Shown here: positions 2,096 to 32,343 of the stretch, in pieces
Numbering within the stretch: position 1 is the first letter of the stretch
How the letters are laid out: every line of letters starts with the position of its first letter
NCBI GenBank assembly: GCA_045650425.1
Contig: JAZRRD010000083.1
Coordinates: 1 to 63,746 of the forward strand
Length of the DNA stretch: 63,746 nucleotides
Direction: 5' to 3'
From: Bacilli bacterium
Lineage (GTDB): Bacteria > Bacillota_I > Bacilli_A > RF39 > UBA660
Translations under genes and position numbers: made by a program
The notes under the pieces: model-generated
The model's database searches: none
The model's input: only the letters and a program-made list of their open reading frames with translations
Told to the model about the DNA's origin: nothing

Positions 2096-2185
2096 TGTTG
2101 ATAATGTGTATAACTCAATTTTAACTAGATATATAAGCCAAAATCTAAAGTTAGTAACTATAAAATAATTCACAAATTATCCCCA
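2096..2185. other. DnaA-box cluster in the dnaA-dnaN spacer (second half of a bipartite oriC)
   Basis: TGTTGATAA (2096-2104, reverse complement TTATCAACA) abuts TGTGTATAA (2105-2113, reverse complement TTATACACA). TTATCCCCA at 2177-2185 is one mismatch from TTATCCACA. The surrounding spacer is extremely AT-rich. Confidence 0.55.
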
Positions 2186-2191
2186 ATTAAT

Positions 2192-3535: not shown

Positions 3536-3616
3536 TCCACCACCCCACAACTAATTTTCTAATTAAATTCTATCTCAAATTTTATTAAATTGAAAGTAAA
3601 AATAAACAAATATAAC

Positions 3617-5665: not shown

Positions 5666-5671
5666 TATTAA

Positions 5672-6280: not shown

Positions 6281-6292
6281 AAAGGGAAAATT

Positions 6293-6601
6293 ATGCCAGA
6301 AAATTTTGAATTATTTAATGAAGAAATTGAAGAAATAAAAAGTTATTCTGAATTACCAACAGATGTATTTTCGCAAATATGTAATGAAGCTAAAAGATAC
6401 TTATCTTCATATGGGAATTATATTGCACCTAGTGTTGTTGTAGATTTAATTGAATCAGCAGTAAGTATATATATGCTTGCTTTAGTACAGGCAGAACAAG
6501 GTCAGAATATAAACTCTAAAATAACAACAAGTGAAGCAGTCAAATTAGCTTTTGAGGATTTAGGTTTAGTGGAAGAGAAATCTCTTTCAACTAAAAGATA
6601 A
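6293..6601 (+). CDS. Hypothetical small acidic protein (102 aa)
   Basis: Clean ORF with a GGGAAAA Shine-Dalgarno-like sequence, 12 nt after jag, followed by a hairpin terminator. I recognise no family motif. Confidence 0.55.
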   Translation: MPENFELFNEEIEEIKSYSELPTDVFSQICNEAKRYLSSYGNYIAPSVVVDLIESAVSIYMLALVQAEQGQNINSKITTSEAVKLAFEDLGLVEEKSLSTKR

Positions 6602-6620
6602 GGACGAAAGTCTTTTTTTT
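6601..6620 (+). terminator. Rho-independent terminator ending the rnpA-yidC-jag-orf102 unit
   Basis: AGGAC-GAAA-GTCTT stem-loop (GNRA loop) followed by T8, directly after the stop at 6599-6601. Confidence 0.5.
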
Positions 6621-6638
6621 ATAATATAAATTCAAAAA

Positions 6639-6667
6639 TTGATTTTTAAATATCAATTTGCTATAAT
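6639..6667 (+). promoter_or_regulatory. Sigma-A promoter with extended -10 for mnmE-mnmG-rsmG-parB
   Basis: TTGATT (6639-6644), 17-nt spacer, TGcTATAAT (6659-6667). Confidence 0.6.
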
Positions 6668-6692
6668 ACAACCGCAAGAGAGGTGACCTTTA

Positions 6693-8039: not shown

Positions 8040-8048
8040 GGAATAAAT

Positions 8049-9908: not shown

Positions 9909-10618
9909 TGAACAAAGAAGAGTTTTATAAAAAATTAGAAGAAAATAATATCCTACTTACCGAATATCAAAAAGAACAATTTAAAATATATTGTGAATAT
10001 CTTTTAGATTATAATAAACACACAAACTTAACTGCAATCAAAGATGAAGAAGGTGTATATTTAAAGCATTTTTATGATTCTGCAAGCGTAGCATTTATCT
10101 ATGATCTAAAAGAAGAAAAAATTTTAGATATTGGTACAGGCGCTGGATTTCCTGGAGTTGTGTTAAAAATATTATTTCCTCGAATTAATTTAACCTTAAT
10201 TGATTCAAATAATAAAAAAACAACTTTTTTAAAAAACTTATTAGAAAAAATAAATATAAATGATGTGAAGGTCCTAAATGATAGGGTTGAAAATATTAAA
10301 GATAAAGAAAGTTTTGATATTGTTATTTCAAGAGCCGTCTCAGAACTTAGAATTTTAGCAGAATTATCTTTACCATACTTAATTATTGGAGGTAAAGTCA
10401 TTGCTTTAAAATCTCATGTTGACGAAGAAATTCAAAAAGCCAAAGAAACAATTGAAATTTTAGGTGGTTCAAGTGCTAAAATTATTGATTTAAATATATC
10501 TAATATGTTAGGTAAAAGATGTTTGGTTGAAATTATAAAAGAAAAAAATACCCCTGAAATATATCCTAGAGTATATGATAAAATTTTGAAATACCCATTG
10601 AAAAAAATAACTAAGTAG
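9908..10618 (+). CDS. rsmG: 16S rRNA m7G527 methyltransferase RsmG (GidB)
   Basis: NLTAIKDEEGVYLKHFYDS and SAM motif DIGTGAGFPG. Conserved mnmG-rsmG order. Confidence 0.9.
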   Translation: MNKEEFYKKLEENNILLTEYQKEQFKIYCEYLLDYNKHTNLTAIKDEEGVYLKHFYDSASVAFIYDLKEEKILDIGTGAGFPGVVLKILFPRINLTLIDSNNKKTTFLKNLLEKININDVKVLNDRVENIKDKESFDIVISRAVSELRILAELSLPYLIIGGKVIALKSHVDEEIQKAKETIEILGGSSAKIIDLNISNMLGKRCLVEIIKEKNTPEIYPRVYDKILKYPLKKITK

Positions 10619-10657
10619 GATAAAATAAAAAGAGAATAATAAGAAGGGGCTGATAAT

Positions 10658-11761
10658 ATGAATCCGCCAAAAGAAATTTTACAAATCCCTGTCGAGGATA
10701 TAATTCCTAATAGATTTCAACCTAGAATTTCATTCGATGAAAAGGCTTTAAATGATTTAGCTTCATCAATAAAACAACATGGAATAATTCAACCGTTAGT
10801 TGTTAGAAGATTAGGTGAAAAATATGAAATTATTGCTGGAGAAAGAAGATATAAAGCTGCAACTAGAGCTGGGCTTACATCTGTTCCTGCTGTAATTACA
10901 GAAATAGATGATAGAACAAGCGCAGAAGTTGCTTTAGTTGAAAATGTTCAAAGAAAAGACTTAACAGCTATCGAAGAAGCAAGAAGTTATAAAAATCTTT
11001 TAGAGAAAAATGGTATGACTCAAGAAGAAATTGCTAAAAAAATGGGCATAAGTCAATCAGCTGTAGCAAATAAACTTAGACTTTTAAATTTATCTGAAAG
11101 AGTTCAAGAGGCTTTATTAAACGAAAAAATCTCAGAAAGACATGCTCGTTCATTACTAGTATTAAGTAACCAAGAAGAACAAGATAAATGGTTAGATAAA
11201 ATCATTAACGAACGTTTAACTGTTAGACAATTAGATACTTTAATAAAAAAAGAAACTGAAACTGAAAGTGAAGCTGAAGAAGATGTTCCTCTTGTTAATA
11301 TAGAACAAACTATTGAAGATATTAAAAATAATGCTACAGATATCATTAGTTATGTTAATGAAGATGTAAATTCTGTAGAAAATGAAAAACAAGAAAATAG
11401 ATTTTTTAATAATCTAGAAGATGAGCCTGTAAGCATGGGGCCAACATCTCCAATTGGTTCTCCTGTGATGCCTGTCTTTAGCATCAATGAAGAACAGCCA
11501 CAGACTATAGAAACAACCCCAAAAGTATTTGATGATATAGAACTTTTAGATGTAGATATACCAATACAAAGTGAAAGCTTGGAAGAAAGTCAAGATATAG
11601 AAGTTATATCGGAAGAACCATCTGAAACTTCAAGTTTGGGAGATATAATAAGTTCACTAAGAAGCAAAATAAATGAACTAAATATTAACGAAAATATAAA
11701 TTTTGAAGAACTTGATCTAGGTGATAGTTATAAAATAAATATTACTATAATCAAAAAATAA
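10658..11761 (+). CDS. parB: ParB/Spo0J/Noc-family partition protein with a long acidic low-complexity C-terminal region
   Basis: ParB box IIQPLVVRRLGEKYEIIAGERRYKAA. HTH EEIAKKMGISQSAVANKLRLLNL. The last ~170 aa are rich in E/D/S/I. No parA/soj gene is adjacent. Confidence 0.85.
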   Translation: MNPPKEILQIPVEDIIPNRFQPRISFDEKALNDLASSIKQHGIIQPLVVRRLGEKYEIIAGERRYKAATRAGLTSVPAVITEIDDRTSAEVALVENVQRKDLTAIEEARSYKNLLEKNGMTQEEIAKKMGISQSAVANKLRLLNLSERVQEALLNEKISERHARSLLVLSNQEEQDKWLDKIINERLTVRQLDTLIKKETETESEAEEDVPLVNIEQTIEDIKNNATDIISYVNEDVNSVENEKQENRFFNNLEDEPVSMGPTSPIGSPVMPVFSINEEQPQTIETTPKVFDDIELLDVDIPIQSESLEESQDIEVISEEPSETSSLGDIISSLRSKINELNINENINFEELDLGDSYKINITIIKK

Positions 11762-20638: not shown

Positions 20639-21298
20639 ATGAAAAAATTAATAGTTATATTTGGAATAGGTACTCTTATAACCATTCTAATTTATAAAAT
20701 TACAGTCATAAATAAAATTGATGTCTTAGTAGTAGGAGATAGTGTAGCTACCGGAGATACTCTTTATGGTAACAGTGGTGTTAGTTTTAACTTGTTTTTA
20801 AAAGATTATTTAAAAGATAAAAGTCTTAGACATTATAATATAAATTATACTCAAAATAATAAAACACTTAAAGATTTTTATTATGAATTAAATCAAAATG
20901 AACAAATAAATGAAAAACACCTTCAGAATTTAGTTAAGGATTCTGACATAATCATTATTGCTTTAGGTCAAGACGAATTAGTTAATAATTCAAATATCAA
21001 CAATCTAAAAAATATTAACAGAAGAAATTTTTATCAAGATTATCAAAAAATTTTAACCAAAATAAGAGAAATTACCCAAAAACCAATATATTTAGTTGGA
21101 TATTACGGTGATACTATAAATCATTTAAATGAAATTGAAAAAAGTATCAAAGTTATCGCACAAAACCAAAATTGTCAATATATATCAATATCCAATTTAA
21201 TAACTACTGATGACTATGTAGACTCTACTTATATACATCTAAATCATAAGGGGCACCGTAAGATTTTTGAACAAATAAAAAAAGAATTAGCATTGTAA
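20639..21298 (+). CDS. Membrane-anchored SGNH/GDSL-family hydrolase
   Basis: N-terminal TM helix. Block I VVGDSVATGD (GDS). C-terminal HLNHKGH (DxxH-like block V). Confidence 0.65.
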   Translation: MKKLIVIFGIGTLITILIYKITVINKIDVLVVGDSVATGDTLYGNSGVSFNLFLKDYLKDKSLRHYNINYTQNNKTLKDFYYELNQNEQINEKHLQNLVKDSDIIIIALGQDELVNNSNINNLKNINRRNFYQDYQKILTKIREITQKPIYLVGYYGDTINHLNEIEKSIKVIAQNQNCQYISISNLITTDDYVDSTYIHLNHKGHRKIFEQIKKELAL

Positions 21299-21301
21299 AT
21301 C

Positions 21302-21330
21302 TTGACGCTTTATTGTATACTATGTATAAG
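21302..21330 (+). promoter_or_regulatory. Candidate sigma-A promoter for essC
   Basis: TTGACG (21302-21307), 17-nt spacer, TATAAG (21325-21330), followed by an AAAGGAGG Shine-Dalgarno and ATG at 21349. Confidence 0.45.
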
Positions 21331-21348
21331 AGTAAAAGGAGGTCTATT

Positions 21349-24300
21349 ATGCAACTTATTATTATAAAAAATAATAAACTTAGATACTTCTTTTTGCCGA
21401 GCAAAGTTTTTGGTAACTATTGGATTAAAGACGATCAAAATGAAAATCTTATCAATGTTGAAGCGTCTAATAATCAATGGGTACTACGTAGTAATGATGA
21501 AGTTAAAATATTAAATAAAGATATGTATTTAGACTCTGTTTTTTTAATTGAGTACAGTTTTTGTTCATTGAAAAAAATAGATGAAAAAGACCCTTTTATA
21601 CTATATTGCTGCCCAACTCTAGATCATTCTAATAAATATTTAAGGGTTAATGAAAATGCTACGGTATCTATAGGATCTGCAAGTTCTAATGATATTATTT
21701 ATAATAGTCAAAATATTGGTCAATCTCATTGCAAATTAACTTTTAATAATAATCAGTGGGTGTTTAATCATGGAGATTCTTCATTAACTTTTATTAATAA
21801 AGAACTGGCTGAAAACAAAAAGGTTTTTAGCGGGGATATTATTTTTATTATGGGACTAAAAATAATAATTGGAACTAATTTTATTGTAGTAAATAATCCG
21901 AGTGGTAAAGTTAAGTTTAACGATAATGTTTTTAAGCCGATAGAATTCGAAGTTATAACTCCCGAAAATAAAAGTGATGAAGATGAAGATATTTATATTG
22001 AGTTGTATCAACCTGAAGATTACTTTTTAAGACAGCCACGATTTAAATCTACAATTGAAAAAGAACAAATACAGATAGATGCGCCACCTGCTAAGCAAGA
22101 TATGCAAGAAATGCCGCTTATTTACACTATTGGACCAATGATAACTATGGCAATGACATCAATGGTGACAATGGTATCAACAATTACTAATGTTTTAGCT
22201 AGCGGCAAATCATGGACCACTGCTATTCCAAGTATGTTAGTTGCTGGAGCAATGTTAGCATCGGTTTTAATATGGCCTTCATTAACTAGAAGATATAATC
22301 GTAAACAAAAGAAAAAGCGTGAAGAATTACGTAACACTAAATACAAAGCTTATCTTGAAGAAAAGAAAAAGAATATTAGTGAAGCTATCGTAAAACAAAG
22401 ACAAATAGTTATCGATAATAACATTTCTTTGCAAGAGTGTATTAATATTATTAATGCTCGTAAAAGAAACTTATGGGAGCGAGAAAAAGAAGACGATGAT
22501 TTCCTAACAGTTAGAATAGGAGTTGGTTCATCAAGCCCTGATTTAGAAGTAAAAGCGCCAGAACAACATTTCTCATTAGAAGATGATGAACTAAATATAA
22601 TTGTTCAGTCTATCGTTAATCAATCAAAAGTTATGGAAGGAGTTCCTATTAATCTATCTTTAACAGATAAAAATATCGTGGCAATGGTAGGACAAAAGCA
22701 AGTTAATAAAGCTTTTATAGATGGAATTATTCTTCAACTGGCAACATTTCACAGCTATGATGAATTAAAAATTGTTTTATTTACTAATGAGGAAAATATC
22801 AAAGATTGGGAATACATGAAAATCATGCCACATTGTTGGGATGACACTAAAAACATTCGTTTCTTTGCTTCAACTGCTGAAGACATGAAGCAAATTTCAG
22901 GATACCTTGAAAAAATATATAATGATCGTGTATATCCAGAGGGGAATCAAAAAGAAAGTAATTTAGATTATCGTAGTTTTAAACCATATTATTTAATTAT
23001 TACAGATAATTTAAAAGTTGCGAGAAATATTGAAATCATTAAAAAAATATTGGTATCAAAAACAAATCGTGGATTTAGTTTAATTATAAAAAATGAAAGA
23101 TTAGCTAATTTACCTGGAGAATGTCCAGTATTCTTAAATATTGATCCTAATGGCTCAGGTTTATTTGAAAATGAACTAGTTTCAACAAAACAAAAAAGTT
23201 TTACTGCAGATATAGATTATAATCTAGATTTAATGAATGTAGCTAAAACACTTGCTAATGTACCGCTAGAAACCACTGCGGCTGGTGGAAGTTTACCAGA
23301 TTCGGTAAGTTTCTTACAAATGTATAATATTGGAAAAATAGAGCAATTAAATACTCAAAATAGATGGAAAACTAATAATCCAACTAACTCATTAAATGTT
23401 CCAGTAGGAATAGATGAAAATGGTGAAGTATTTAATTTAGATTTACATGAAAAAGCGCACGGTCCACATGGTCTAATTGCTGGAATGACTGGTTCAGGTA
23501 AAAGCGAATTTATAATTACTTATATATTATCACTAGCTGTTAACTATCATCCTAATGAAGTTTCCTTTATCTTAATTGACTACAAGGGTGGGGGTCTAGC
23601 AGGAGCTTTTGAAAATAGAGAAACAGGAATAAAGTTGCCACATCTTGCTGGTACAATAACCAATTTGGATACCATGGAAATGAAGAGATCATTAGCTTCA
23701 ATCCAAAGTGAATTAAGAAGAAGACAACATATGTTTAATGAGGCAAGAGATTCATTAAATGAAAGTACTATTGATATATATAAATATCAAAGATTATATA
23801 GAGATGGTTTAGTTAAAACCCCAATATCACACTTATTTATCATATCAGATGAGTTTGCAGAACTAAAAGCTCAACAACCAGAGTTTATGGCTCAACTAAT
23901 TCAAACGGCTCGTATTGGACGTAGTTTAGGTGTACATTTGATTTTGGCGACTCAAAAACCTGCTGGAGTTGTAGATGACCAAATCTGGAGTAACAGTAAA
24001 TTCAGAGTGTGTTTAAAAGTTCAAGATAAATCAGATAGTATGGATATGATTAAATGTGCAGATGCTGCGATGCTTAAAAATGTCGGTCGTTTCTATTTAC
24101 AGGTTGGTTATAATGAATTTTTTGGGCTTGGACAATCTGCATGGTGTGGGGCTCAATATTATCCGACTGATAAAGTAAAAAAGAATGTTGATAATTCTAT
24201 AGGATTTATTAATACAATTGGACAAGTCATAAGAAATATAGATGATACAAAGAAAAATGTGTCATTGGTTTCAAAGGGCGAAGAATTACCAAACATATTA

Positions 24301-25947
24301 AAATATTTAGTTAACATTGCTAAAGAAGATAATATAAGTGTTAGCCAACTATGGTTAGAAAAAATTCCGGAATTCATATATGTAGAAAATTTGAAACAAA
24401 AATATCGTTTTGCTTCAAAACAATTTGTATTGAATCCAATTATCGGAGAATTTGACGATCCAGAAAATCAACGTCAAGGGCTACTTACTATTCCTTTAAG
24501 TCAAGATGGCAACACTATTATTTATGGTGTAGCAGGAAGCGGAAAAGAATTGTTATTAACGACTATAATTTATTCTTTGATAACAGATCACTCACCTGAT
24601 GAAGTGAATTTCTATATCATGGATTTTGGCGCTGAAACCCTTAAAAACTTTAGAAAAGCACCGCAAGTCGGGGATGTATTATTTGCAACTGAGGATGAAA
24701 AAATAATTAACTTATTAAAAATGTTGCAAGAAAAAATAGAGGAAAGAAAAGCGTTATTTATTGATTACAACGGAGATTATAATTTCTATTGTCAAAATAG
24801 TGGAAAAACATTACCTGCAATAGTAATCATAATTAATAATTATGAAGTTTTCTCTGAAGCTTATTATGAATACGAAGATTTAATTCAACAAATATCTCGT
24901 GATGGATTAAAATATGGAATTATTTTCATCTTTACAACTAATGGTACTAATTCAGTTAAATACCGTTTGCGTCAAAATTTTAAAACTGAATTGGTTTTAC
25001 AAATGAATGACGAAGGTGACTATATAACAATTTACGGAAACACAGGAAAAGTTTATCCATCTAATATAAAAGGGCGAGGAATAGTAAAACTAGAAAGTGT
25101 TTATGAATTTCAAACAGCATATGCTTATAAAGAAACAGAAATGGTTGAATATATAAAATTAGTATGCGATAAACTTCGCGAAAAATATCCTAATAAAGCA
25201 CCTCAAGTTCCAGTATTGCCACAAAGAGTAACATTAGATTTTGTTTCAGGCTTATTAACTGGATTAGGAAGTATACCTATTGGTGTAAAAAAATCTACTT
25301 TAGCTATTGATACAATAGACTTAGCCACAAGATATACAACTATTATTACAGGAAATGATTTAGAAATATATAATTCTTTTATCGGGGCTATTCTTAGTCA
25401 AGTTGCTACTTTAAAACAATCAAGAAATATTGTTTTTGATACTTTGGAAATGGTTCCAAAAAATGTTCATAATTTAACAGAGTATAAAACAAACTCTTTC
25501 GAAGAATTAACATGTGAAATATGTGAATATGTTGATGAATGTTATCAAATATATATAAATAACAACTATAGTAGAACGGCTTTAAATGATAAAGAAAAAT
25601 ACACAGTATTTATAATTGGTATAGATGAATTTTTAAAACGTTTAGAGCCAGAAATTAAAACAAAATTTGTTAAAGCTTTAGAAAAAGGAAAAGATCTAAA
25701 TGTTGTACAATTTGTAATTGTAGATTCAAGTAGTAATCTTAAAAAACAAGAATATGAGTCATGGTATAAGACTGTTATTACACCAAATCGTGGTTTATGG
25801 TTAGGTAATGGTATTGCTGATCAATTCCAATTAAAACTTGCTAAAACTCCTAGAGAATTAAGAGAATTAATAGATGATGGTTTTGGATATAATGTAAAAA
25901 ATGGGCTTGCTACATTAGTTAAACTTGTAGAAGTAGATAAGGAGTAA
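21349..25947 (+). CDS. essC: Type VII secretion FtsK/SpoIIIE-family ATPase EssC/YukBA-type (FHA domains + 2 TM + three P-loop domains)
   Basis: About 1530 aa. The N-terminal ~200 aa have FHA-like repeats (IGSASSNDIIYNS...HCKLTF). Two TM helices follow (PLIYTIGPMITMAMTS..., AIPSMLVAGAMLASVLIW). D1 Walker A GMTGSGKSEF is at 23482-23505, with Walker B LFIISDEFAEL. D2 is GVAGSGKELL (about 24527-24550). D3 is degenerate. True start MQLIIIKNNK at 21349. Confidence 0.9.
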   Translation: MQLIIIKNNKLRYFFLPSKVFGNYWIKDDQNENLINVEASNNQWVLRSNDEVKILNKDMYLDSVFLIEYSFCSLKKIDEKDPFILYCCPTLDHSNKYLRVNENATVSIGSASSNDIIYNSQNIGQSHCKLTFNNNQWVFNHGDSSLTFINKELAENKKVFSGDIIFIMGLKIIIGTNFIVVNNPSGKVKFNDNVFKPIEFEVITPENKSDEDEDIYIELYQPEDYFLRQPRFKSTIEKEQIQIDAPPAKQDMQEMPLIYTIGPMITMAMTSMVTMVSTITNVLASGKSWTTAIPSMLVAGAMLASVLIWPSLTRRYNRKQKKKREELRNTKYKAYLEEKKKNISEAIVKQRQIVIDNNISLQECINIINARKRNLWEREKEDDDFLTVRIGVGSSSPDLEVKAPEQHFSLEDDELNIIVQSIVNQSKVMEGVPINLSLTDKNIVAMVGQKQVNKAFIDGIILQLATFHSYDELKIVLFTNEENIKDWEYMKIMPHCWDDTKNIRFFASTAEDMKQISGYLEKIYNDRVYPEGNQKESNLDYRSFKPYYLIITDNLKVARNIEIIKKILVSKTNRGFSLIIKNERLANLPGECPVFLNIDPNGSGLFENELVSTKQKSFTADIDYNLDLMNVAKTLANVPLETTAAGGSLPDSVSFLQMYNIGKIEQLNTQNRWKTNNPTNSLNVPVGIDENGEVFNLDLHEKAHGPHGLIAGMTGSGKSEFIITYILSLAVNYHPNEVSFILIDYKGGGLAGAFENRETGIKLPHLAGTITNLDTMEMKRSLASIQSELRRRQHMFNEARDSLNESTIDIYKYQRLYRDGLVKTPISHLFIISDEFAELKAQQPEFMAQLIQTARIGRSLGVHLILATQKPAGVVDDQIWSNSKFRVCLKVQDKSDSMDMIKCADAAMLKNVGRFYLQVGYNEFFGLGQSAWCGAQYYPTDKVKKNVDNSIGFINTIGQVIRNIDDTKKNVSLVSKGEELPNILKYLVNIAKEDNISVSQLWLEKIPEFIYVENLKQKYRFASKQFVLNPIIGEFDDPENQRQGLLTIPLSQDGNTIIYGVAGSGKELLLTTIIYSLITDHSPDEVNFYIMDFGAETLKNFRKAPQVGDVLFATEDEKIINLLKMLQEKIEERKALFIDYNGDYNFYCQNSGKTLPAIVIIINNYEVFSEAYYEYEDLIQQISRDGLKYGIIFIFTTNGTNSVKYRLRQNFKTELVLQMNDEGDYITIYGNTGKVYPSNIKGRGIVKLESVYEFQTAYAYKETEMVEYIKLVCDKLREKYPNKAPQVPVLPQRVTLDFVSGLLTGLGSIPIGVKKSTLAIDTIDLATRYTTIITGNDLEIYNSFIGAILSQVATLKQSRNIVFDTLEMVPKNVHNLTEYKTNSFEELTCEICEYVDECYQIYINNNYSRTALNDKEKYTVFIIGIDEFLKRLEPEIKTKFVKALEKGKDLNVVQFVIVDSSSNLKKQEYESWYKTVITPNRGLWLGNGIADQFQLKLAKTPRELRELIDDGFGYNVKNGLATLVKLVEVDKE

Positions 25948-25950
25948 GTT

Positions 25951-26202
25951 ATGAATAAGTTATTAGTTAAAATAAAATATCCCCTTATTTCTCAAGAATA
26001 TGAAATATTTATTCCAATAAATAAAACAATTGGTAAAATTACTGAATTAATTCAAAAAGCTATAATTGAATTTAATGTTGAGGAAATACCAATGAAAAAA
26101 AATGCCATTTTAGTAAAATCAGATACTAACGAAATACTCAATTTTCATAAGTTAGTCTATGAAACTAACATAAAAAATGGTGATGTTTTAGTTATATTGT
26201 AA
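25951..26202 (+). CDS. esaB: YukD/EsaB-like ubiquitin-fold T7SS accessory protein
   Basis: 83 aa, 3 nt after essC. Ends ...NIKNGDVLVIL, like the remembered YukD C-terminus ...ITNGDRLEIL. Confidence 0.65.
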   Translation: MNKLLVKIKYPLISQEYEIFIPINKTIGKITELIQKAIIEFNVEEIPMKKNAILVKSDTNEILNFHKLVYETNIKNGDVLVIL

Positions 26203-26231
26203 ACGTTTTACGTAAAGTAAGACGTTTTCTT

Positions 26232-26260
26232 TTGATGGATAATATATTTAATGGTATACT
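26232..26260 (+). promoter_or_regulatory. Sigma-A promoter with extended -10 for the WXG100 gene pair
   Basis: TTGATG (26232-26237), 17-nt spacer, TGgTATACT (26252-26260). The AGGGAGGTG Shine-Dalgarno lies downstream. Confidence 0.55.
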
Positions 26261-26298
26261 TAAAATAAAGAAATTAAGTAAAATAGGGAGGTGAAACA

Positions 26299-26592
26299 AT
26301 GAGTATTTTTGGTGCTAATACAGGAGATTTATCACATGCTGGAAAAACTATTACAACTTTAGGAGAAGAATATAAATCTAATATTACAAATATTTTTAAT
26401 GAAATTGATAATTTAAGTGGAAAATGGTCTGGTGGTGCTTCTGAAACTTATATTAATACATTTAATAGTTATAAAATGGATTTAAATAATTTAGGAGTAA
26501 CAATCGAAAAAATGGGGCAAGCATTAACAAGTGCTGCAGTTGCTTTTGACCAAAATGAAAGTGATTTAAGTTCACAAGCAGGACAATTATAA
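26299..26592 (+). CDS. esxA: WXG100-family protein (EsxA/YukE-like)
   Basis: 97 aa helical hairpin with a central W-x-G (GKWSGGASETY). Typical size. Adjacent to essC. Confidence 0.8.
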   Translation: MSIFGANTGDLSHAGKTITTLGEEYKSNITNIFNEIDNLSGKWSGGASETYINTFNSYKMDLNNLGVTIEKMGQALTSAAVAFDQNESDLSSQAGQL

Positions 26593-26608
26593 TAAAGGAG
26601 GGAATTAT

Positions 26609-26908
26609 ATGCAAAACAATACATTTAAAATGACATATCAAGAAGTTGAAAATACAGTTGCTCAACTTACAAGATATGCCGATGCTATTAGAGAAGAATT
26701 AGATAGAGTTACAATTGCTTCATCAAATATAACTGCTGATGAATGGAGAGGTAAAGCTGCTGAATCTTATAAAAATACGTTTGACACATTAAGACCAAAA
26801 TTTGATATGTTTTATAATCAAATAATGGAATGTGTTAATTATTTAAATACAGCAATGGGTAAAAATCAAGAAACAGATGCTCAAGTGTCTGGTACATTTG
26901 CAGAATAA
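26609..26908 (+). CDS. Second WXG100-family protein
   Basis: 99 aa with a central W-x-G (ADEWRGKAAESY). Immediately follows the first WXG100 gene. Confidence 0.75.
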   Translation: MQNNTFKMTYQEVENTVAQLTRYADAIREELDRVTIASSNITADEWRGKAAESYKNTFDTLRPKFDMFYNQIMECVNYLNTAMGKNQETDAQVSGTFAE

Positions 26909-26909
26909 A

Positions 26910-26936
26910 AACATCATTAAACATGATGTTTTTTTA
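26910..26936. terminator. Bidirectional rho-independent terminator (WXG100 pair / TetR gene)
   Basis: Perfect 8-bp stem AACATCAT (26910-26917) / ATGATGTT (26923-26930), with T-runs on both strands. Confidence 0.8.
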
Positions 26937-27482
26937 TTTAACCAATTCTTTATAAATTTTAACAAGTCTTTTAATAATTTCTTTACTATCTATCGTAAAA
27001 TCATTCGTTGCAATTAATGTTGCCAAGCCGTTTGAGTATGTCCATAAATGCATAAAAACTGATTTTGCTTCATCAAAAGAATATCCATGCTTATTTACTA
27101 AATTAATTATCGTAGATTGATTCCACTTTTCATTTAACACGTCGTCGATACTCTTCCAATTTAAATTATTAGATAAGAATAAGCAAGTAAATAAATTTTT
27201 GTTTTCTTTAGCAAATTCTACATACGCTACACACAAAGTTACTAAAGCATTTTTATTGTCTATACGTTTGTTGATAAATTCATCATATATTTTATAAATG
27301 GCATCATACAACTCTGTTTTAATTTCATCCATGCCTGAATATATTCTATATAAAGGTTTTGTTGACATTCCTAACTCTTTTGCTAGACTTCTGGCGTTAA
27401 GAGAATCCCAACCATACTTTTTAACCATTAATATTGCAGTGTTAATAATAATTTTTTTATCTACAATCGCAGTCGTTGTCAC
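26934..27482 (-). CDS. TetR/AcrR-family transcriptional regulator
   Basis: N-terminal HTH GWDSLNARSLAKELGMSTKPLYRIYSGMDEI. About 180 aa, all-helical. Confidence 0.85.
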   Translation of the reverse strand: MTTTAIVDKKIIINTAILMVKKYGWDSLNARSLAKELGMSTKPLYRIYSGMDEIKTELYDAIYKIYDEFINKRIDNKNALVTLCVAYVEFAKENKNLFTCLFLSNNLNWKSIDDVLNEKWNQSTIINLVNKHGYSFDEAKSVFMHLWTYSNGLATLIATNDFTIDSKEIIKRLVKIYKELVK

Positions 27483-27547: not shown

Positions 27548-28363
27548 TTACTTTTCGTCATAATCTTCCAAAAAATGATACTTTTTATCATCTTTATAAT
27601 AACCAATAATAGTATTTAAATTAACATTTTCGGTACTTTTAAAAATATTTTGATCTATATATTTACTACGTGTTCTCAAATCTTTTATTAAATTTTTAAC
27701 TTCTTGTCTTTTTCCTTCAAAAGCATTTTTTTCAGTAAACTTACAAGCGCAGTTAATAAATTCTAAGTTGTTATAGTTAGCCCAAGCTATAATATCCTTT
27801 TCTTTAATAAGATATAAAGGCCTTATTAGTTCCATTCCTTCAAAGTTATCGCTATGAAGTTTTGGCATCATTGTTTTAAATTCCGCACTATAAAAAATAG
27901 ATAGAAGTGTTGTTTCTATAACATCATCAAAGTGATGCCCCAAAGCAATTTTATTGCAGCCAAGTTCTTTGGCAAAATTATAGAGATAGCCTCTTCTCAT
28001 TCTTGCGCACATGTAACAAGGTTTTTCGTTATTTAAAAAACTAGAAACTTCAAAAATGTCAGTTTTAAATATTTTGATTGGAATGTTTAGTATTTCTGCA
28101 TTATGAATAATATTATTTAAATGTTCTTCCTTGTAACCCGGATTCATTACAATAAATTCTAACTCAAACTTCATTTTACCGTGCCTTAAAATTTCTTGCA
28201 TACATTTTGCTAGTAAAAAAGAATCTTTTCCGCCTGAAATACATACTGCTATTCTATCGTTTTCTGAAATTAATTTATAATCCTTAATTGCTTTAATGAA
28301 AGGACTCCATATTTCTTTTCTATATTTTTTTATTATACTTTTTTCAATATCTTTTAAATTCAT
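27548..28363 (-). CDS. PP-loop ATPase, TtcA-like tRNA thiolation enzyme
   Basis: PP-loop VCISGGKDS. Cysteine motifs CYMCARMRRG and CACKF are consistent with the Fe-S TtcA family. Confidence 0.75.
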   Translation of the reverse strand: MNLKDIEKSIIKKYRKEIWSPFIKAIKDYKLISENDRIAVCISGGKDSFLLAKCMQEILRHGKMKFELEFIVMNPGYKEEHLNNIIHNAEILNIPIKIFKTDIFEVSSFLNNEKPCYMCARMRRGYLYNFAKELGCNKIALGHHFDDVIETTLLSIFYSAEFKTMMPKLHSDNFEGMELIRPLYLIKEKDIIAWANYNNLEFINCACKFTEKNAFEGKRQEVKNLIKDLRTRSKYIDQNIFKSTENVNLNTIIGYYKDDKKYHFLEDYDEK

Positions 28364-28375
28364 GATTTCACCTCA

Positions 28376-28400
28376 TTAAAAAAGCTCTATAAAGAGCTTT
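28376..28400 (-). terminator. Rho-independent terminator after the three-gene envelope operon
   Basis: 7-bp stem AAGCTCT / AGAGCTT with a 4-nt loop. On the minus strand it is followed by T6. Confidence 0.7.
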
Positions 28401-28402
28401 AG

Positions 28403-29410
28403 TTATGGCATAACTATAAAACCACTTACAACCTTACGACCATTTTTAATTGGCTGGCCTGCAACATTTAATGGGTTATTAACAAGTTGATTATTAATAA
28501 CTAATTGTGCAGAACTACCACCATCAAGATTAGCAGCATTGTAAGCGCCATATTTAGCTAATGTTTCTGCTAAGTCAATTAGTTTAGGACCATTAGCATG
28601 AACGCCCTCTGTCACTAAAAATAATACCACACCATCTTTTCTTTGTCCAATAGCAACTCTTGCAGCTCTATTATAACCACCTGCTGCATCTTCAAACTTA
28701 ATTTGTTCTCCATTAACAATTAAGAAAGGACCAAACTCTAAAGCATCCCGCATGCCCATAGCGATTGCTTCTTCGCCAGTAGCAGCAGTAAGTAATAATT
28801 TATTGTCTTTGGTAAACCCAATTAAGTTAGCTTTATCATTATCATCAGACCAGATAATTTCTCCGTCTTTTATTAAATAACCTTGTGGTATGTCACTTCC
28901 CCAACCATCAGGGTCTTTAAATGCACCACCATTTATACAAACTAATCCGCCCAAACGTTTGCATGTATCTTTAACTCTTTCCGCTCCTTTTTTGTTATTG
29001 TTAAATGACGGAGAGGTAGAAAGTCTAACTTTACTTGGATCATATATAGCTACTAAAAAAGCCTTGTATCCACCAACTTCTAGTTCTATTAATTTATAAT
29101 CATCGTTGCCCTCATCTCTTGTAAGTATGATTTCATCATATTCATTATCATATGACTCTTTAGGGCTTGTATCGATAACGATTTTATCTAAATCAACATC
29201 TTCATCAAAAGGAATATACGAATCTTTTTGCAAAACTTTATTTACCATATTTTTGCTATAAAATGTATAAGCAATATACTGATGAGTTTTAGTTACCATC
29301 GCGGTTGAAATAATTGTGTTTTTTATATATTCAACTGGTCCATATACTAAGAAAAAACATATTGCTACTAAAACATCTAAGACTATTATCACTTTAGTTA
29401 ATTTTTTCAT
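28403..29410 (-). CDS. Membrane-anchored phosphodiester glycosidase-family protein (DUF2233/NAGPA-like)
   Basis: N-terminal TM helix. CINGGAF...GWGSD and NLDGGSSAQLV motifs are remembered from this family. Confidence 0.65.
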   Translation of the reverse strand: MKKLTKVIIVLDVLVAICFFLVYGPVEYIKNTIISTAMVTKTHQYIAYTFYSKNMVNKVLQKDSYIPFDEDVDLDKIVIDTSPKESYDNEYDEIILTRDEGNDDYKLIELEVGGYKAFLVAIYDPSKVRLSTSPSFNNNKKGAERVKDTCKRLGGLVCINGGAFKDPDGWGSDIPQGYLIKDGEIIWSDDNDKANLIGFTKDNKLLLTAATGEEAIAMGMRDALEFGPFLIVNGEQIKFEDAAGGYNRAARVAIGQRKDGVVLFLVTEGVHANGPKLIDLAETLAKYGAYNAANLDGGSSAQLVINNQLVNNPLNVAGQPIKNGRKVVSGFIVMP

Positions 29411-29411
29411 A

Positions 29412-30653
29412 TTATTTTTCCTCCATCAAATATGGTGTATTAATGCTACCATTACCGCTTTTTAAAACTTCTTTACTTATTGTAATAACAGGTTTAATAG
29501 ATTTAGCTAAAGTACTTTTACAATTGCTAACTCCATCACTATAAACAAACATATTTGTCTCATCAACATTGTTTATCAAATAATACTGATTTTCGCTTTT
29601 GCCAAACTTTGGATCTTTAAGATTTGGAATGCCAACTTTTCCATTGAAGATATCACCATATTGGTTATCAACAATAATATCTTTATAACTTAAACTATTA
29701 TAATAATCATTATTTAAGTAATAAGCAAGTGAGCCATTTAATGAGGAATCGTACATAGTTGTATTACCAAACGACATTAATTTATCTAGTTCATTATCCA
29801 AGCTTAAAGTAATATTTGTTTCATCACTTTTAATTATTCTCCACATATCATTATCTAATTTAACATAACTACCAATTGCATAATCTTTAGTAGCATCAAT
29901 TCGATAAGGATCATCTTTAGTACCAGTACCTGAAATTAACTCAACATCCATATCTAATGTTATAATCGGTAGAACTCCATAATAATTGTCTACAAAAGAT
30001 GTTGAAATATTATAACCATTGGTATGCCATGCCATTGTATCGTTTCTATCGCTTAACCATATATATTCATTACTATCATTTATATAAGTTTCATCGTTAA
30101 TTGTATTTAAATATGTATTTATATCTAATGTTTTAACATACACATTATCTATATCTGTTTCACATTCTTTTCCATTTATTTCATTAACTACGTCTAAACA
30201 AACACTTGATGTAGTTAATAAATCTTTATTTAAATACTTTATAAATTCTTCATTCAAATATTTATGTAATTCAGATTTATCGTAATCAATTAAGTCATTA
30301 TTCCATGGTAGATAGTTAAGTGGTTCATCTAATATAAGTTCTACTGTAGAACCATAATTTATCTTTAAGATTCTGAAATTTAAGCCAGAAAATGTAATAT
30401 AGTTATTATCAACATTTCCCTTATATATATAACTTCCTCCTATATGGTACAACCCATTTCCTGAAGTAACTATTGCACTACTTTTAGGAATAGAAATTGA
30501 TAAAAGGCCTCCGTTTAGCTCTGTTTTCTTAGGATTAAATATTTTATAATATTTTATTAAACGATATCCATAGAAAGCGCAACATCCTATTATAAATACA
30601 ACACTTATAATGTTAAAAATATTTTCTATTAATCTTTTTTTTCTTCTTGACAT
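29412..30653 (-). CDS. Hypothetical membrane-anchored extracytoplasmic protein (413 aa)
   Basis: N-terminal TM (IISVVFIIGCCAFYGY). N/D/Y-rich ectodomain containing GTGTKDDPYRI and GNGSINTPYLM motifs. Tightly packed between its neighbours. Confidence 0.55.
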   Translation of the reverse strand: MSRRKKRLIENIFNIISVVFIIGCCAFYGYRLIKYYKIFNPKKTELNGGLLSISIPKSSAIVTSGNGLYHIGGSYIYKGNVDNNYITFSGLNFRILKINYGSTVELILDEPLNYLPWNNDLIDYDKSELHKYLNEEFIKYLNKDLLTTSSVCLDVVNEINGKECETDIDNVYVKTLDINTYLNTINDETYINDSNEYIWLSDRNDTMAWHTNGYNISTSFVDNYYGVLPIITLDMDVELISGTGTKDDPYRIDATKDYAIGSYVKLDNDMWRIIKSDETNITLSLDNELDKLMSFGNTTMYDSSLNGSLAYYLNNDYYNSLSYKDIIVDNQYGDIFNGKVGIPNLKDPKFGKSENQYYLINNVDETNMFVYSDGVSNCKSTLAKSIKPVITISKEVLKSGNGSINTPYLMEEK

Positions 30654-30672
30654 AACTCTAACTCCTTAACTC

Positions 30673-31920
30673 TTATTTTAATAATTCTTTAAGCTTATTT
30701 ACTGTAGTTGAACTAAATATTGTTTTTCTTGGTATTTTAAATTTATTTGTTTTTCCCGGTGTAGAAAAACCATTAGTGTTATATTGACCAATGAAAGCCA
30801 TGTTAAATCCAGCTTCTTTTAATAAACCAATTGCTCGATCATTAAAGTCAAAAAATGGATAAGCAAAATATTTACTTCCGCCAACTTTTTCTTGGCTTGT
30901 TTTTAAATCATTTAAAACATATTCTCTATCTTTACAAAGAATACCTCCGCCTTGAAGCCCCATACCTTTACATTCATATTGATTATGCATTAAATCTGTA
31001 TGGCTTTCTAAAGCTAAATACGGAGAATTAAATCTTTCTAAATTCTCAATCCATCCAGTAATAACAAATAATGTAGCATATTGTTCATATTGTTCTAATA
31101 AATCAATTGCTTTGGTATTAAATATTGTTGCATCGTCAATTGTGATTACTAAACTATTATATGGAAGATTAATTTTTTTATCTAAAAACATTTCTAGTTC
31201 TGGTAACTGTAAGGTTAAATAATCGTTTTCTTTAATATATTTTAAGTGACTTTCAAATTGCTCTAAAGATTGGCAAATACTTTGGTTACATTTATCTGTC
31301 TCAGGATCATATAAAAAATGATAAGTTAAAGTGATTATTTTATCTTTTTTCTTTTCGGTTGAATTTATATTTTCTTTTATTTCTAAAACATTTTCTTTAT
31401 CTACATAATAAAGTTTATCATTAAATTCTACACCATATTTATCTTCATCTTTGATTATAATAGGTAAATTATATTCTTCGTTATAGGTTATAAAATTTCC
31501 TTTTTCATCAGTAAAAGTTGTAGGACTCTTTGTTATAATGTTTTCGTTAAATGGGATATACTCCTTATAGCGTTTATTTGTTTTGGTAATCTCTTTTATT
31601 CCTTCAATTGCATCATATGAAATATAATAATCAGTATTTGCAATCTTAAAATATTTAGTATTTAGATCTATATCTTCTTTTGCTAATTCTAGTTCATTAT
31701 TTTTTCCGATAACTCCAACTTCAATATAATCATTATTAACTTGTTTATAAATTTTAGTATCTTTAGTAACTGTAACAAATTTACTAAATTTTTTTGCAAT
31801 TTCTTTAATCTTGTTCTCAGATTGTATAAATTCTTTTTCATTTTTATAATAAAGACATCCTAATCCCAACCCTAAAACGATAAAAAAAATTAAAAATCCC
31901 AGTACAATTTTTCTCATCAC
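30673..31920 (-). CDS. Membrane-anchored polysaccharide deacetylase (NodB/CE4-like C-terminal domain)
   Basis: N-terminal TM. The C-terminal half has LTYHFLYD, VITIDDAT, ATLFVITGW and ESHTDLMH, resembling CE4 motifs. Confidence 0.7.
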   Translation of the reverse strand: MMRKIVLGFLIFFIVLGLGLGCLYYKNEKEFIQSENKIKEIAKKFSKFVTVTKDTKIYKQVNNDYIEVGVIGKNNELELAKEDIDLNTKYFKIANTDYYISYDAIEGIKEITKTNKRYKEYIPFNENIITKSPTTFTDEKGNFITYNEEYNLPIIIKDEDKYGVEFNDKLYYVDKENVLEIKENINSTEKKKDKIITLTYHFLYDPETDKCNQSICQSLEQFESHLKYIKENDYLTLQLPELEMFLDKKINLPYNSLVITIDDATIFNTKAIDLLEQYEQYATLFVITGWIENLERFNSPYLALESHTDLMHNQYECKGMGLQGGGILCKDREYVLNDLKTSQEKVGGSKYFAYPFFDFNDRAIGLLKEAGFNMAFIGQYNTNGFSTPGKTNKFKIPRKTIFSSTTVNKLKELLK

Positions 31921-31972
31921 ACGAACCCTACTTTCTAAAAAATTATATCATGACATCAGGATTGAGTAAATC

Positions 31973-31994
31973 AAAAAAAGCACCTTTAAGTGCT
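31973..31994 (-). terminator. Candidate terminator after gerQ
   Basis: AGCAC / GTGCT stem with a 6-nt loop overlapping the stop codon. T-run on the minus strand. Confidence 0.45.
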
Positions 31995-32343
31995 AAAAAG
32001 TTTTATCGGAATAGGAGTGACTATAATTAATTTTTTCATCAAATTCTACATAATTTAAATAAATCATTCTAATCATATACCACTTACCAGTTTTAGGGTC
32101 GCTAATAATTAGATGATCTCTTCCTGCTTCTTCAACTATTCCATCATAAATTTTATCTTTCCAAGCAATTGAATCTGGATAAGATACATAAGCTTTAATT
32201 TTTTTTCCCTTATTAAGTCTTAAAATATTTTCAATGTAACTTTGCTCCATTGGCATAGTATCCATAAAACTTACATTTCCTGGTGGTGTAATCGGTTCTT
32301 CCTGAGTTGGAAATGTAGGATTTTGGTAAAAACTTCCATTCAT
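31993..32343 (-). CDS. gerQ: Spore coat protein GerQ-family
   Basis: SYIENILRLNKGKKIKAYV...EEAGRDHLIISDPKTGKWYMIRMIYLNYVEFDEKINY matches the remembered GerQ core (YIENILRLNKGK...AGRDH...LDYITFDE). Confidence 0.7.
   Translation of the reverse strand: MNGSFYQNPTFPTQEEPITPPGNVSFMDTMPMEQSYIENILRLNKGKKIKAYVSYPDSIAWKDKIYDGIVEEAGRDHLIISDPKTGKWYMIRMIYLNYVEFDEKINYSHSYSDKTF

What the first reader, a model, noticed from the sequence alone, without database searches (positions are those of the whole stretch)
21302..26936. Stripped-down type VII (WXG100) secretion locus: EssC + YukD-like + two WXG100 proteins only
Firmicute T7SSb loci as described (S. aureus ess, B. subtilis yuk/yue) encode EsxA, EsaA/YueB, EssA/YueC, EsaB/YukD, EssB/YukC and EssC/YukBA. 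The membrane components EssA, EssB and EsaA are considered required. This locus has only four genes. EssC is a ~1530-aa FHA-FHA-TM-TM-3xP-loop protein (D1 Walker A GMTGSGKS at 23482-23505, D2 GVAGSGKE, D3 degenerate). An 83-aa ubiquitin-like YukD/EsaB homolog starts 3 nt after essC. Then, behind their own strong extended -10 promoter (26232-26260), come two different WXG100 proteins (KWSGG and EWRGK). The unit is closed by a bidirectional terminator. It is flanked by housekeeping murA and an SGNH hydrolase upstream, and by a convergent TetR gene downstream. There are no LXG/PE-type effectors, immunity genes or an EssB-like pseudokinase. The EssC FHA domains would normally contact EssB. So this could be a minimal, self-sufficient T7SS variant, or an EssC-WXG module using unknown partners.
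Basis: partly seen in the sequence, partly recalled or inferred. Interest (0 to 1): 0.7.

Follow-up and report, generated by a model that had tools for sequence, protein, structure and literature searches.

The report
Four-gene minimal type VII secretion locus
An uncultured gut bacterium carries a type VII protein-secretion locus cut down to the three universally shared parts (motor ATPase, ubiquitin-like clamp, WXG100 pair), which makes it a natural candidate for the smallest working version of this machine.

Summary
The locus holds a 1532-aa EssC-type ATPase (21349-25947), an 83-aa ubiquitin-fold YukD-like protein (25951-26202) and two different WXG100 proteins (26299-26592, 26609-26908). 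It is flanked by murA/SGNH hydrolase and a convergent TetR gene. No other T7SS gene lies in the 63.7-kb window.

The module recurs in at least 17 related loci from uncultured low-GC gut Bacilli MAGs. These sit in about five different chromosomal contexts and never include EssB, EssA, EsaA, a kinase, a phosphatase or an FHA partner.

The ATPase N-terminal half matches TseC of the published T7SSe subtype far better (282 bits) than S. aureus EssC (83 bits). Relatives at about 38-44% identity have full T7SSe loci in the same C-B-A1-A2 order, with Ser/Thr kinase, PP2C and DUF6382-FHA genes.

In the minimal clade the FHA2 phosphothreonine pocket has decayed: 0 of 142 members keep all four key residues, against 50 of 98 in distant relatives.

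Best reading: a reduced T7SSe derivative keeping only the universal trio. Absence of partners elsewhere in the genome could not be tested.

The parts
20639..21298 (+). Flank, not shown to be part of the system. Membrane-anchored SGNH/GDSL hydrolase that lies directly upstream of essC in the window clade.
   Evidence: PF13472 and PF00657. Syntenic in L013, L016 and L017.
21349..25947 (+). TseC/EssC-type membrane ATPase, 1532 aa. An upstream in-frame TTG at 21313 would give 1544 aa.
   Evidence: TIGR03928 1067 bits. YukB 9qks E 1e-127. N-terminal 500 aa against TseC 282 bits versus S. aureus EssC 83 bits. RBS AAAGGAGGT at 21337-21345.
21349..21948 (+). Tandem FHA domains (aa 1 to about 200). The FHA2 phosphothreonine pocket is degenerate (GS / GxxH / no NG).
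   Evidence: AF2 plus Foldseek to 5fwh, 9qks_H and 1wv3. Motif analysis.
22120..22287 (+). Two transmembrane helices (aa about 258-313) with a short outside loop.
   Evidence: Hydrophobic stretches read from the sequence and their alignment with the TseC TM region.
23482..23505 (+). D1 Walker A GMTGSGKS. The Walker B LFIISDE lies at aa 841 of the 1544-aa frame.
   Evidence: D1 averages 84% per-position identity to the window protein across 119 homologues.
24526..24549 (+). D2 Walker A GVAGSGKE. D3 (aa about 1251-1532) has no P-loop and is the most variable region.
25951..26202 (+). TsxB/YukD-like ubiquitin-fold protein, 83 aa, with no C-terminal Gly-Gly.
   Evidence: AF2 pLDDT 88.8. Foldseek YukD 2bps TM 0.78 and rmsd 1.9; EccD5 ubiquitin-like domain TM 0.78. 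Weak PF08817 hits in 8 of 18 orthologues. Adjacent to essC in every locus that extends past the essC stop.
26201..26237 (+). Terminator- or attenuator-like hairpin plus T-run between yukD and the WXG genes.
   Evidence: z -2.97. Compensatory stem changes in L013.
26232..26260 (+). Promoter-like site with extended -10 (TTGATG-17-TGgTATACT).
   Evidence: 9 of 12 matches, not above background. TGnTATAAT kept in L013.
26299..26592 (+). WXG100 protein A1, 97 aa, KWSGG motif, C-terminal FxxxExxLxxxA tail.
   Evidence: PF06013 37 bits. Orthologues in the same position in related loci.
26609..26908 (+). WXG100 protein A2, 99 aa, EWRGK motif.
   Evidence: PF06013 43 bits. Orthologues in related loci.
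26908..26940 (.). Hairpin flanked by T-runs on both strands, consistent with a bidirectional terminator shared with the convergent TetR gene.
   Evidence: z -3.7 on + and -3.4 on -.
26934..27482 (-). Flank: convergent TetR-family regulator, syntenic only in the window clade.
   Evidence: PF13305 and PF00440, both weak. Synteny.

Best explanation
This is a reduced descendant of the T7SSe type VII secretion system. It keeps only the three parts that nearly all T7SS subtypes share: the TsxC membrane ATPase, the ubiquitin-like TsxB, and a non-identical WXG100 pair (TsxA1/A2).

Shown here:
- the gene content and the domain and fold assignments;
- conservation of the module, which stands alone in several genomic contexts;
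- purifying selection on all four genes;
- TseC-type ancestry of the ATPase;
- loss of the T7SSe kinase, phosphatase and FHA-partner genes from the locus, together with decay of the FHA2 phosphothreonine pocket.

Inferred mechanism:
- Six ATPase protomers form the membrane channel with their 12 TM helices.
- The 83-aa ubiquitin-like protein is gripped between the FHA domains, the DUF domain and a D1 hairpin, and locks each protomer into an assembly-competent shape. This is what YukD does for YukB in B. subtilis.
- The A1/A2 heterodimer is both cargo and activator, docking through a C-terminal tail on the variable C-terminal ATPase domain.
- Control by phosphorylation has been given up. Expression is split into two units: essC-yukD, and then, after a hairpin, the WXG pair from its own promoter.

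In some relatives the same minimal machine sits next to LXG-like polymorphic toxins and DUF4176 chaperones. So the machine probably also exports large toxins where they exist.
For: - Identity of the parts.
- Conserved stand-alone module. Window, L001, L013 and L017 share murA-SGNH-C-B-A1-A2-tetR. L006-L010, L012, L014, L015 and L018 lie near rpsI and spoIID and carry C-B plus 66-aa and 71-80-aa WXG derivatives. L020 and L024 are in further contexts.
- No homologue of any T7SSe accessory protein in 414 kb of minimal-clade DNA. No YukC, EssA or EsaA Pfam hit was recorded for any gene in the looked-up loci.
- More than 120 intact full-length EssC clusters at 49-100% identity.
- dN/dS against L013: essC 0.11, yukD 0.10, A1 0.31, A2 0.18.
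- TseC ancestry: 282 bits to TseC, against 151 (TsiC), 151 (TsdC), 120 (TsfC), 115 (TsjC) and 83 (S. aureus EssC).
- Relatives with full T7SSe-type loci in the same C-B-A1-A2 order: L025 (complete genome CP126446.1; kinase, FHA protein, PP2C), L023 (kinases, PP2C) and L022 (DUF6382-FHA).
- FHA2 pocket R/S/H/N: 0 of 142 minimal-clade members keep all four residues, against 50 of 98 distant relatives. Garrett et al. Table S1 gives 98/99/90% conservation of the three motifs in TseC.
- YukD is gripped by the YukB FHA domains, the DUF domain and the D1 hairpin 918-931, and the modelled central channel is formed by YukB alone. The hairpin segment aligns with window EssC aa about 950-963.
- essC-yukD is duplicated as a pair in L019.
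- LXG-like toxins, DUF4176 proteins and a LysM-WXG fusion lie next to the minimal machine in L011.
Against: - Whole genomes could not be searched, so unlinked partners cannot be excluded. These could be housekeeping PASTA kinase and PP2C, or unknown membrane proteins.
- No expression or secretion data exist, and the organisms are uncultured.
- In every characterised T7SS, extra membrane components are required.
- L016 keeps essC-yukD but lacks the WXG genes at the locus. Either the WXG genes can be unlinked, or the pair has another role.
- In the sister clade the WXG derivatives are short (66 aa and about 71-80 aa). A1 there has lost the Gly of WXG, and A2 has lost the whole turn.
- The TsxC reference sequences were transcribed from OCR text of a supplementary PDF.
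Confidence: 0.6

Rival explanations
1. The locus is only the core of a larger system. Required membrane or regulatory partners are encoded elsewhere in the genome, unlinked to essC.
For: - The FHA domains and the stalk remain under constraint, so they probably bind something.
- Every experimentally studied T7SS needs extra membrane proteins (Garrett et al. 2024; Oka et al.).
- L016 shows that even the WXG genes can be missing from the locus.
- Only 63.7 kb of this genome, and about 20 kb per relative, could be inspected.
Against: - In all ten described subtypes the accessory genes cluster with tsxC.
- Here the module is bare in about five independent contexts.
- It is duplicated as essC-yukD alone in L019.
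- The pThr pocket that would read a kinase signal has decayed.
- Binding to YukD alone can explain why the FHA domains are retained.
Confidence: 0.28
2. It is a canonical Firmicute T7SSb that has lost EssA, EssB and EsaA.
For: - The T7SSb equivalog model TIGR03928 scores above its cutoff.
- The tandem-FHA fold matches T7SSb EssC and YukB structures best. No T7SSe structure exists in the PDB for comparison.
Against: - The N-terminal 500 aa score 282 bits to TseC and only 83 bits to S. aureus EssC.
- The FHA region does not align with YukB by sequence.
- The nearest relatives that have accessory genes carry T7SSe parts (kinase, PP2C, DUF6382-FHA), not EssB, EssA or EsaA.
- A non-identical WXG pair is a T7SSe trait, not a T7SSb trait.
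Confidence: 0.05
3. It is a decaying or repurposed remnant. EssC-YukD no longer secretes proteins and serves another role, or none.
For: - The WXG genes are absent in L016.
- The WXG proteins are truncated and degenerate in the sister clade.
- The lineage appears to have a reduced genome: the EssC cluster of P0022 is recorded on a contig of 1.24 Mb.
Against: - A 4.6-kb ORF is intact in more than 120 clusters.
- dN/dS is about 0.1.
- The D1 Walker motifs are conserved.
- Toxin, DUF4176 and WXG arsenals lie next to the minimal machine in L011, L019 and L024.
Confidence: 0.07

Closest known systems
[quoted passage not shown]
   Same: - The ATPase is closest to TseC in its N-terminal half (282 bits, 34% identity over 499 aa). 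It shares the N-terminal signature (LP.KV.G.YWI, GD.I.IMG.K.IIG..F...NNP.G) and the long TM-hairpin region.
- It has a non-identical WXG100 pair and a YukD-like protein.
- The gene order C-B-A1-A2 is the same as in the full T7SSe-type loci L025, L023 and L022.
   Different: - There is no Ser/Thr kinase (D), PPM phosphatase (F), DUF6382-FHA protein (J), single-TM proteins (H, K) or large Ig-like wall-spanning protein (I) in the window or in 17 related loci.
- The GR/SxxH/NG phosphothreonine motifs, 90-99% conserved in TseC, are lost.
T7SSg (same paper): TsgA1, TsgA2, TsgB, TsgC, TsgL
   Same: It is the simplest published arrangement: two WXG100 proteins, a ubiquitin-like protein and the ATPase.
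   Different: - TsgC lacks FHA domains.
- A DUF5050 beta-propeller protein (TsgL) is present.
- Tad pilus genes always lie next to it.
- None of these three features applies here.
T7SSb (S. aureus Ess, B. subtilis Yuk/Yue)
   Same: - The ATPase has the same architecture: FHA-FHA-TM-TM-DUF-D1-D2-D3.
- D1 is close to YukB.
- The YukD fold is shared.
- The YukB-YukD clamp and the YukB-only central channel model are the best mechanistic template.
   Different: - There is no EssB/YukC, EssA/YueC or EsaA/YueB.
- There are two different WXG100 proteins instead of one EsxA homodimer.
- The FHA region is not alignable with YukB by sequence.
- The N-terminal half scores only 83 bits to S. aureus EssC.
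T7SSf (Clostridia)
   Same: An FHA-bearing ATPase whose pThr pocket is only partly conserved, plus TsfA and TsfB.
   Different: - It has a PPM phosphatase, a membrane DUF6382-FHA protein and a TadZ-like AAA+ ATPase.
- It has a single WXG100 protein.
- N-terminal similarity to the window ATPase is low (120 bits).

Membership tests
Type VII secretion systems in general (universal trio TsxA/TsxB/TsxC) | Membrane FtsK/SpoIIIE-type EccC/EssC ATPase with two TM helices and several P-loop domains | tested here: met
   TIGR03928 1067 bits; PF01580; Walker A motifs at 23482-23505 and 24526-24549; YukB 9qks E 1e-127.
Type VII secretion systems in general (universal trio TsxA/TsxB/TsxC) | WXG100 helical-hairpin protein encoded at the locus | tested here: met
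   Two ORFs exceed the PF06013 cutoff and carry WSG and WRG motifs.
Type VII secretion systems in general (universal trio TsxA/TsxB/TsxC) | Ubiquitin-like YukD/EsaB protein without a C-terminal Gly-Gly | tested here: met
   AF2 pLDDT 88.8. Foldseek YukD 2bps TM 0.78 and rmsd 1.9. The protein ends ...VLVIL. Sequence-level Pfam support is only weak.
Type VII secretion systems in general (universal trio TsxA/TsxB/TsxC) | EssC-dependent export of the WXG100 proteins | not testable with these tools
   This needs an experiment. The organisms are uncultured.
T7SSb (Ess/Yuk) | EssB/YukC membrane pseudokinase | tested here: not met
   No PF10140 hit or kinase-like ORF in the 63.7-kb window. None recorded for any gene in the looked-up related loci. 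The rest of the genome was not searchable.
T7SSb (Ess/Yuk) | EssA/YueC and EsaA/YueB membrane proteins | tested here: not met
   Same scans as for EssB. The intergenic gaps in the locus (3, 96, 16 and 25 nt) leave no room for unannotated genes. Genome-wide absence was not testable.
T7SSb (Ess/Yuk) | ATPase of the EssC/TsbC lineage | tested here: not met
   The N-terminal 500 aa score 83 bits to S. aureus EssC and 282 bits to TseC. The FHA region does not align with YukB. TIGR03928 nevertheless scores above its cutoff. A full phylogeny was not done.
T7SSe | [quoted passage not shown] | tested here: met
   TseC is the best match among six TsxC references, and the alignment is end to end. The closest relatives that have accessory genes are T7SSe-like.
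T7SSe | Conserved phosphothreonine-binding motifs GR / SxxH / NG in the FHA domain (98/99/90% in TseC) | tested here: not met
   The window protein has GS / GxxH / no NG. Of 142 clade members, 0 keep all four key residues.
T7SSe | TseA1 plus TseA2 pair, and TseB | tested here: met
   The order C-B-A1-A2 is the same as in L025, L022 and L023.
T7SSe | TseD kinase, TseF PPM phosphatase, TseJ DUF6382-FHA protein, TseH/TseK single-TM proteins, TseI large Ig-like protein | tested here: not met
   phmmer searches with the accessory proteins of L025, L022 and L023 found no homologue of the kinase, PP2C, FHA-partner or large accessory proteins at E <= 0.01 in 414 kb (window plus 17 minimal loci). The only hits were weak ones among small proteins. 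Pfam scans agree. Genome-wide absence was not testable.
T7SSg | ATPase without FHA domains; TsgL DUF5050 propeller; adjacent Tad pilus genes | tested here: not met
   Tandem FHA domains are present. No DUF5050 or Tad genes in the window.

The most novel reading that the evidence does not exclude
A naturally minimal, self-sufficient type VII secretion machine. A TseC-derived ATPase hexamer forms the channel by itself, one ubiquitin-like clamp stabilises it, and a WXG100 heterodimer serves as cargo and activator. No other dedicated membrane, wall-spanning or regulatory component is needed. It evolved by reduction of the phospho-regulated T7SSe in gut Bacilli that appear to have small genomes. 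It would count as an eleventh arrangement beyond T7SSa-j.
Probability: 0.45. Interest if true: 0.78.

Novelty: new variant of a known kind. Interest (0 to 1): 0.62.

Why it matters
T7SS research still lacks agreement on what the minimal machine is, what forms the channel, and what the many subtype-specific accessory proteins contribute.

A 5.6-kb, four-gene system holding only the universally shared parts would be a natural minimal core. It is conserved across more than 120 90%-identity protein clusters and is sometimes flanked by LXG-like toxins. It is small enough for heterologous reconstitution, cryo-EM and AlphaFold multimer modelling.

It also gives an evolutionary case of a secretion system that sheds its kinase, phosphatase and FHA control layer. 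The parallel decay of the phosphothreonine pocket supports, from the opposite direction, the proposal that T7SSe is regulated by phosphorylation.

The published classification (T7SSa-j) was built from RefSeq. No 'Bacilli bacterium' or Mycoplasma entry, nor the one NCBI accession tested for this clade, was found in its supplementary files. So these uncultured gut lineages appear to have been missed.

Tried and rejected
- Rfam scan of the window: no RNA family.
- Sequence-profile search of the YukD-like family against the PDB: only chance hits. The fold comparison was needed.
- Pfam and NCBIfam on the 83-aa protein itself: no hit.
- I tested whether the gene upstream of essC is a shared fifth component. 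It is not. The window clade has an SGNH hydrolase there. The sister clade has an unrelated protein of about 235 aa with HxxxD and HxH motifs and no family hit.
- I asked whether the 1230-aa protein in L011 is EsaA-like. It is not. It shares an LXG-like N-terminal domain with a 590-aa neighbour and has only a glycine-rich hydrophobic stretch.
- MAG fragmentation as an explanation for the missing genes: rejected. The locus is embedded in housekeeping genes on contigs of up to 378 kb in independent assemblies.
- Whole-genome search for partners: not possible.
- Organism identity: cluster look-up gave no name beyond 'Bacilli bacterium'.
- Literature: no T7SSk or comparable minimal arrangement in the held library.
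Full report
WHAT IS THERE

The window is a 27% GC contig that starts at the replication origin. It carries dnaA, dnaN, rnpA, yidC, mnmE/G, rsmG and parB, as well as spoIIR, gerQ and spo0A. So it comes from a low-GC spore-forming member of the Bacillota.

Four co-oriented genes lie between murA plus a membrane-anchored SGNH hydrolase on one side and a convergent TetR gene on the other.

1. A 1532-aa ATPase at 21349-25947. The ATG sits behind AAAGGAGGT, and an in-frame upstream TTG at 21313 would give 1544 aa.
   - It scores 1067 bits on TIGR03928 (cutoff 778) and hits PF01580 and one FHA domain.
   - An AF2 model of residues 1-262 (pLDDT above 90 for residues 1-200) matches the tandem-FHA N-termini of G. 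thermodenitrificans EssC, B. subtilis YukB and S. aureus EssC over about 210 columns.
2. An 83-aa ORF that starts 3 nt after the essC stop.
   - It has no family hit by sequence.
   - It folds with pLDDT 88.8 into a beta-grasp. The best TM-scores are to YukD (2bps, 0.78, rmsd 1.9) and the EccD5 ubiquitin-like domain.
   - Eight of 18 orthologues hit PF08817 weakly.
3. and 4. Two different WXG100 proteins with the motifs KWSGG and EWRGK. Both score above the Pfam cutoff.

A terminator-like hairpin at 26201-26227 plus a T-run separates yukD from the WXG genes. It is followed by an extended -10 promoter-like site. The hairpin shows compensatory changes in a relative whose EssC is 77% identical, and the TGnTATAAT element is kept there. 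A second hairpin, flanked by T-runs on both strands, closes the unit. No other T7SS-related gene lies in the 63.7 kb.

CONSERVATION OF THE ARCHITECTURE

The ATPase belongs to a large family. At least 120 protein clusters at 90% identity share 49-100% identity with it. All come from metagenomes or MAGs, labelled 'Bacilli bacterium', 'uncultured Clostridia' or 'uncultured Mycoplasma sp.', from human, mouse and rabbit gut.

I inspected 17 loci, each with up to 10 kb on either side.

- The window clade (62-100% identity) keeps murA-SGNH-C-B-A1-A2-tetR. One member, L016, lacks A1 and A2.
- A sister clade (50-53% identity) lies near rpsI and spoIID. It has C-B followed by two ORFs of 66-67 aa and about 71-80 aa. 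Iterative searches and alignments identify them as shortened A1 and A2 orthologues.
- L020 and L024 are in still other contexts.
- L011 carries LXG-like polymorphic toxins (1230 and 590 aa, sharing an N-terminal domain), DUF4176 proteins and three WXG proteins (one fused to LysM) next to C-B.
- L019 carries two C-B pairs in tandem.

None of these loci holds EssB, EssA, EsaA or any kinase, phosphatase or FHA partner. dN/dS against L013 is 0.11 for essC, 0.10 for yukD, 0.31 for A1 and 0.18 for A2; dS is near saturation.

WHAT IT DESCENDS FROM

Garrett, Higginson and Palmer (2024) split T7SS into subtypes a-j. All share TsxC, nearly all share TsxA and TsxB, and each adds its own accessory proteins.

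I transcribed the first 500 aa or so of six TsxC references from their Fig. S2. The window ATPase scores as follows:

- TseC: 282 bits (34% identity, aligned from residue 16)
- TsiC: 151 bits
- TsdC: 151 bits
- TsfC: 120 bits
- TsjC: 115 bits
- S. aureus EssC: 83 bits

An exhaustive search of 1.84 billion representatives shows a continuum of full-length relatives down to about 37% identity. I looked up five of them.

- P0201 (44% identity) lies on a closed 4.14-Mb genome, CP126446.1. Its locus has a Ser/Thr kinase, an FHA protein, PP2C, a zinc-ribbon protein, C-B-A1-A2 and DUF4176. Its N-terminus scores 415 bits to TseC.
- P0279 has C-B-A1-A2 followed by kinases and PP2C.
- P0231 has C-B-A1-A2 followed by a DUF6382-FHA protein.
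- P0198 sits on a short contig, and the context is cut off.
- P0185 (47% identity) is again minimal.

So the minimal clade is best read as derived from T7SSe, not from T7SSb.

A CORRELATED MOLECULAR CHANGE

In TseC the FHA phosphothreonine motifs GR / SxxH / NG are 98/99/90% conserved (Garrett Table S1). P0198, P0201 and P0231 keep all of them, and P0279 does too once a small insertion in its alignment is allowed for. The window protein has GS / GxxH and no NG. Other subclades lost different residues.

Across 265 full-length proteins, none of the 142 that are at least 47% identical to the window keeps all four key residues. Of the 98 below 40% identity, 50 do.

The FHA fold itself stays under constraint. 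The B. subtilis cryo-EM structure offers a reason. YukD is gripped between the YukB FHA domains, the DUF domain and a D1 hairpin, and the modelled central channel is made by YukB alone. The hairpin segment aligns with window EssC at about residues 950-963.

MECHANISM AND LIMITS

The most likely reading is a reduced T7SSe.

- The ATPase hexamer forms the channel.
- The ubiquitin-like protein clamps each protomer.
- The A1/A2 heterodimer is cargo and activator.
- Phospho-regulation has been abandoned.

D3, the least conserved region, would carry substrate specificity.

What is shown is the gene content, the folds, the conservation, the ancestry and the pocket decay. Export, channel formation and the clamp are inferred.

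The main rival is that unlinked partners exist elsewhere in the genome. I could not test this because whole genomes were not searchable. I give the self-sufficient reading roughly 45% and the broader 'reduced T7SSe core' reading about 60%.

NOVELTY

No paper in the held library describes an arrangement made only of the universal trio. The simplest published arrangement, T7SSg, has an extra propeller protein and an ATPase without FHA domains. Searches of the Garrett supplementary files for 'Bacilli bacterium', Mycoplasma and the one NCBI accession tested for this clade found nothing.

This is a new variant of a known kind. It is of real interest to T7SS specialists as a candidate minimal machine.

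Noticed in passing
L016 14616-15430 (ERZ28653768 scaffold_28, 378 kb): A relative whose EssC is 66% identical keeps murA-SGNH-essC-yukD-tetR synteny but has no WXG100 genes between yukD and tetR. Either the pair moved elsewhere in that genome or it was lost.
   Followed up: partly
L019 7-14870 (GCA_947628565.1, CANRAH010000005.1): Two essC-yukD pairs lie in tandem. Between them are small helical and WXG-like proteins, a 566-aa lipoprotein-like protein and a DUF4176 fusion. The ATPase and the ubiquitin-like protein were duplicated as a unit.
   Followed up: partly
L015 9130-9855; also L006 8315-8989, L010 8128-8874, L012 1717-2424, L014 1581-2291: In the sister clade a conserved protein of about 235 aa lies upstream of essC. 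It has HxxxD and HxH-like motifs (THLESFAIDEAG ... GNHCHLECG), no signal peptide, an acidic low-complexity linker and a conserved C-terminal tail. It has no Pfam or NCBIfam hit. It may be an M23-like wall hydrolase exported without Sec; this is untested.
   Followed up: partly
window 20639-21298: A membrane-anchored SGNH/GDSL hydrolase lies directly upstream of essC (50-nt gap) in every member of the window clade. A link to cell-wall remodelling for secretion, like EssH in S. aureus, is only a guess.
   Followed up: no
window 408-3550 and 4329-11761: The contig begins at the chromosomal origin: comK, dnaN and dnaA on the minus strand, then rnpA, yidC, jag, mnmE, mnmG, rsmG and parB. The T7SS locus is therefore only about 20 kb from oriC.
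   Followed up: partly
L011 1688-9662: Two proteins of 1230 and 590 aa share an N-terminal helical domain of about 130 aa (MA.NTID.QTMEIIK.RYMGIPGDLDGV...). They have different C-termini, which is a polymorphic-toxin layout. They sit beside three DUF4176 proteins and a WXG100-LysM fusion. The N-terminal domain matches no Pfam LXG model.
   Followed up: partly
L006-L018 small ORFs after yukD (e.g. L008 14887-15320): In the sister clade A1 is cut to about 66 aa. It usually keeps the Trp but has lost the Gly of WXG and both termini. A2 (about 71-80 aa) has a deletion that removes the whole WXG turn. These may be among the shortest WXG100 derivatives still linked to a T7SS ATPase.
   Followed up: partly
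window 27548-32343 (minus strand): A conserved block lies downstream of the locus in the window clade: a PP-loop ATPase, an NAGPA phosphodiester glycosidase, a 413-aa protein with a faint DUF6273 hit, a polysaccharide deacetylase and GerQ. It looks related to the spore cortex or coat.
   Followed up: no
L024 5176-6372 (minus strand): An IS605 OrfB/TnpB-like gene lies about 4 kb upstream of a minimal essC locus in GCA_947624175.1.
   Followed up: no
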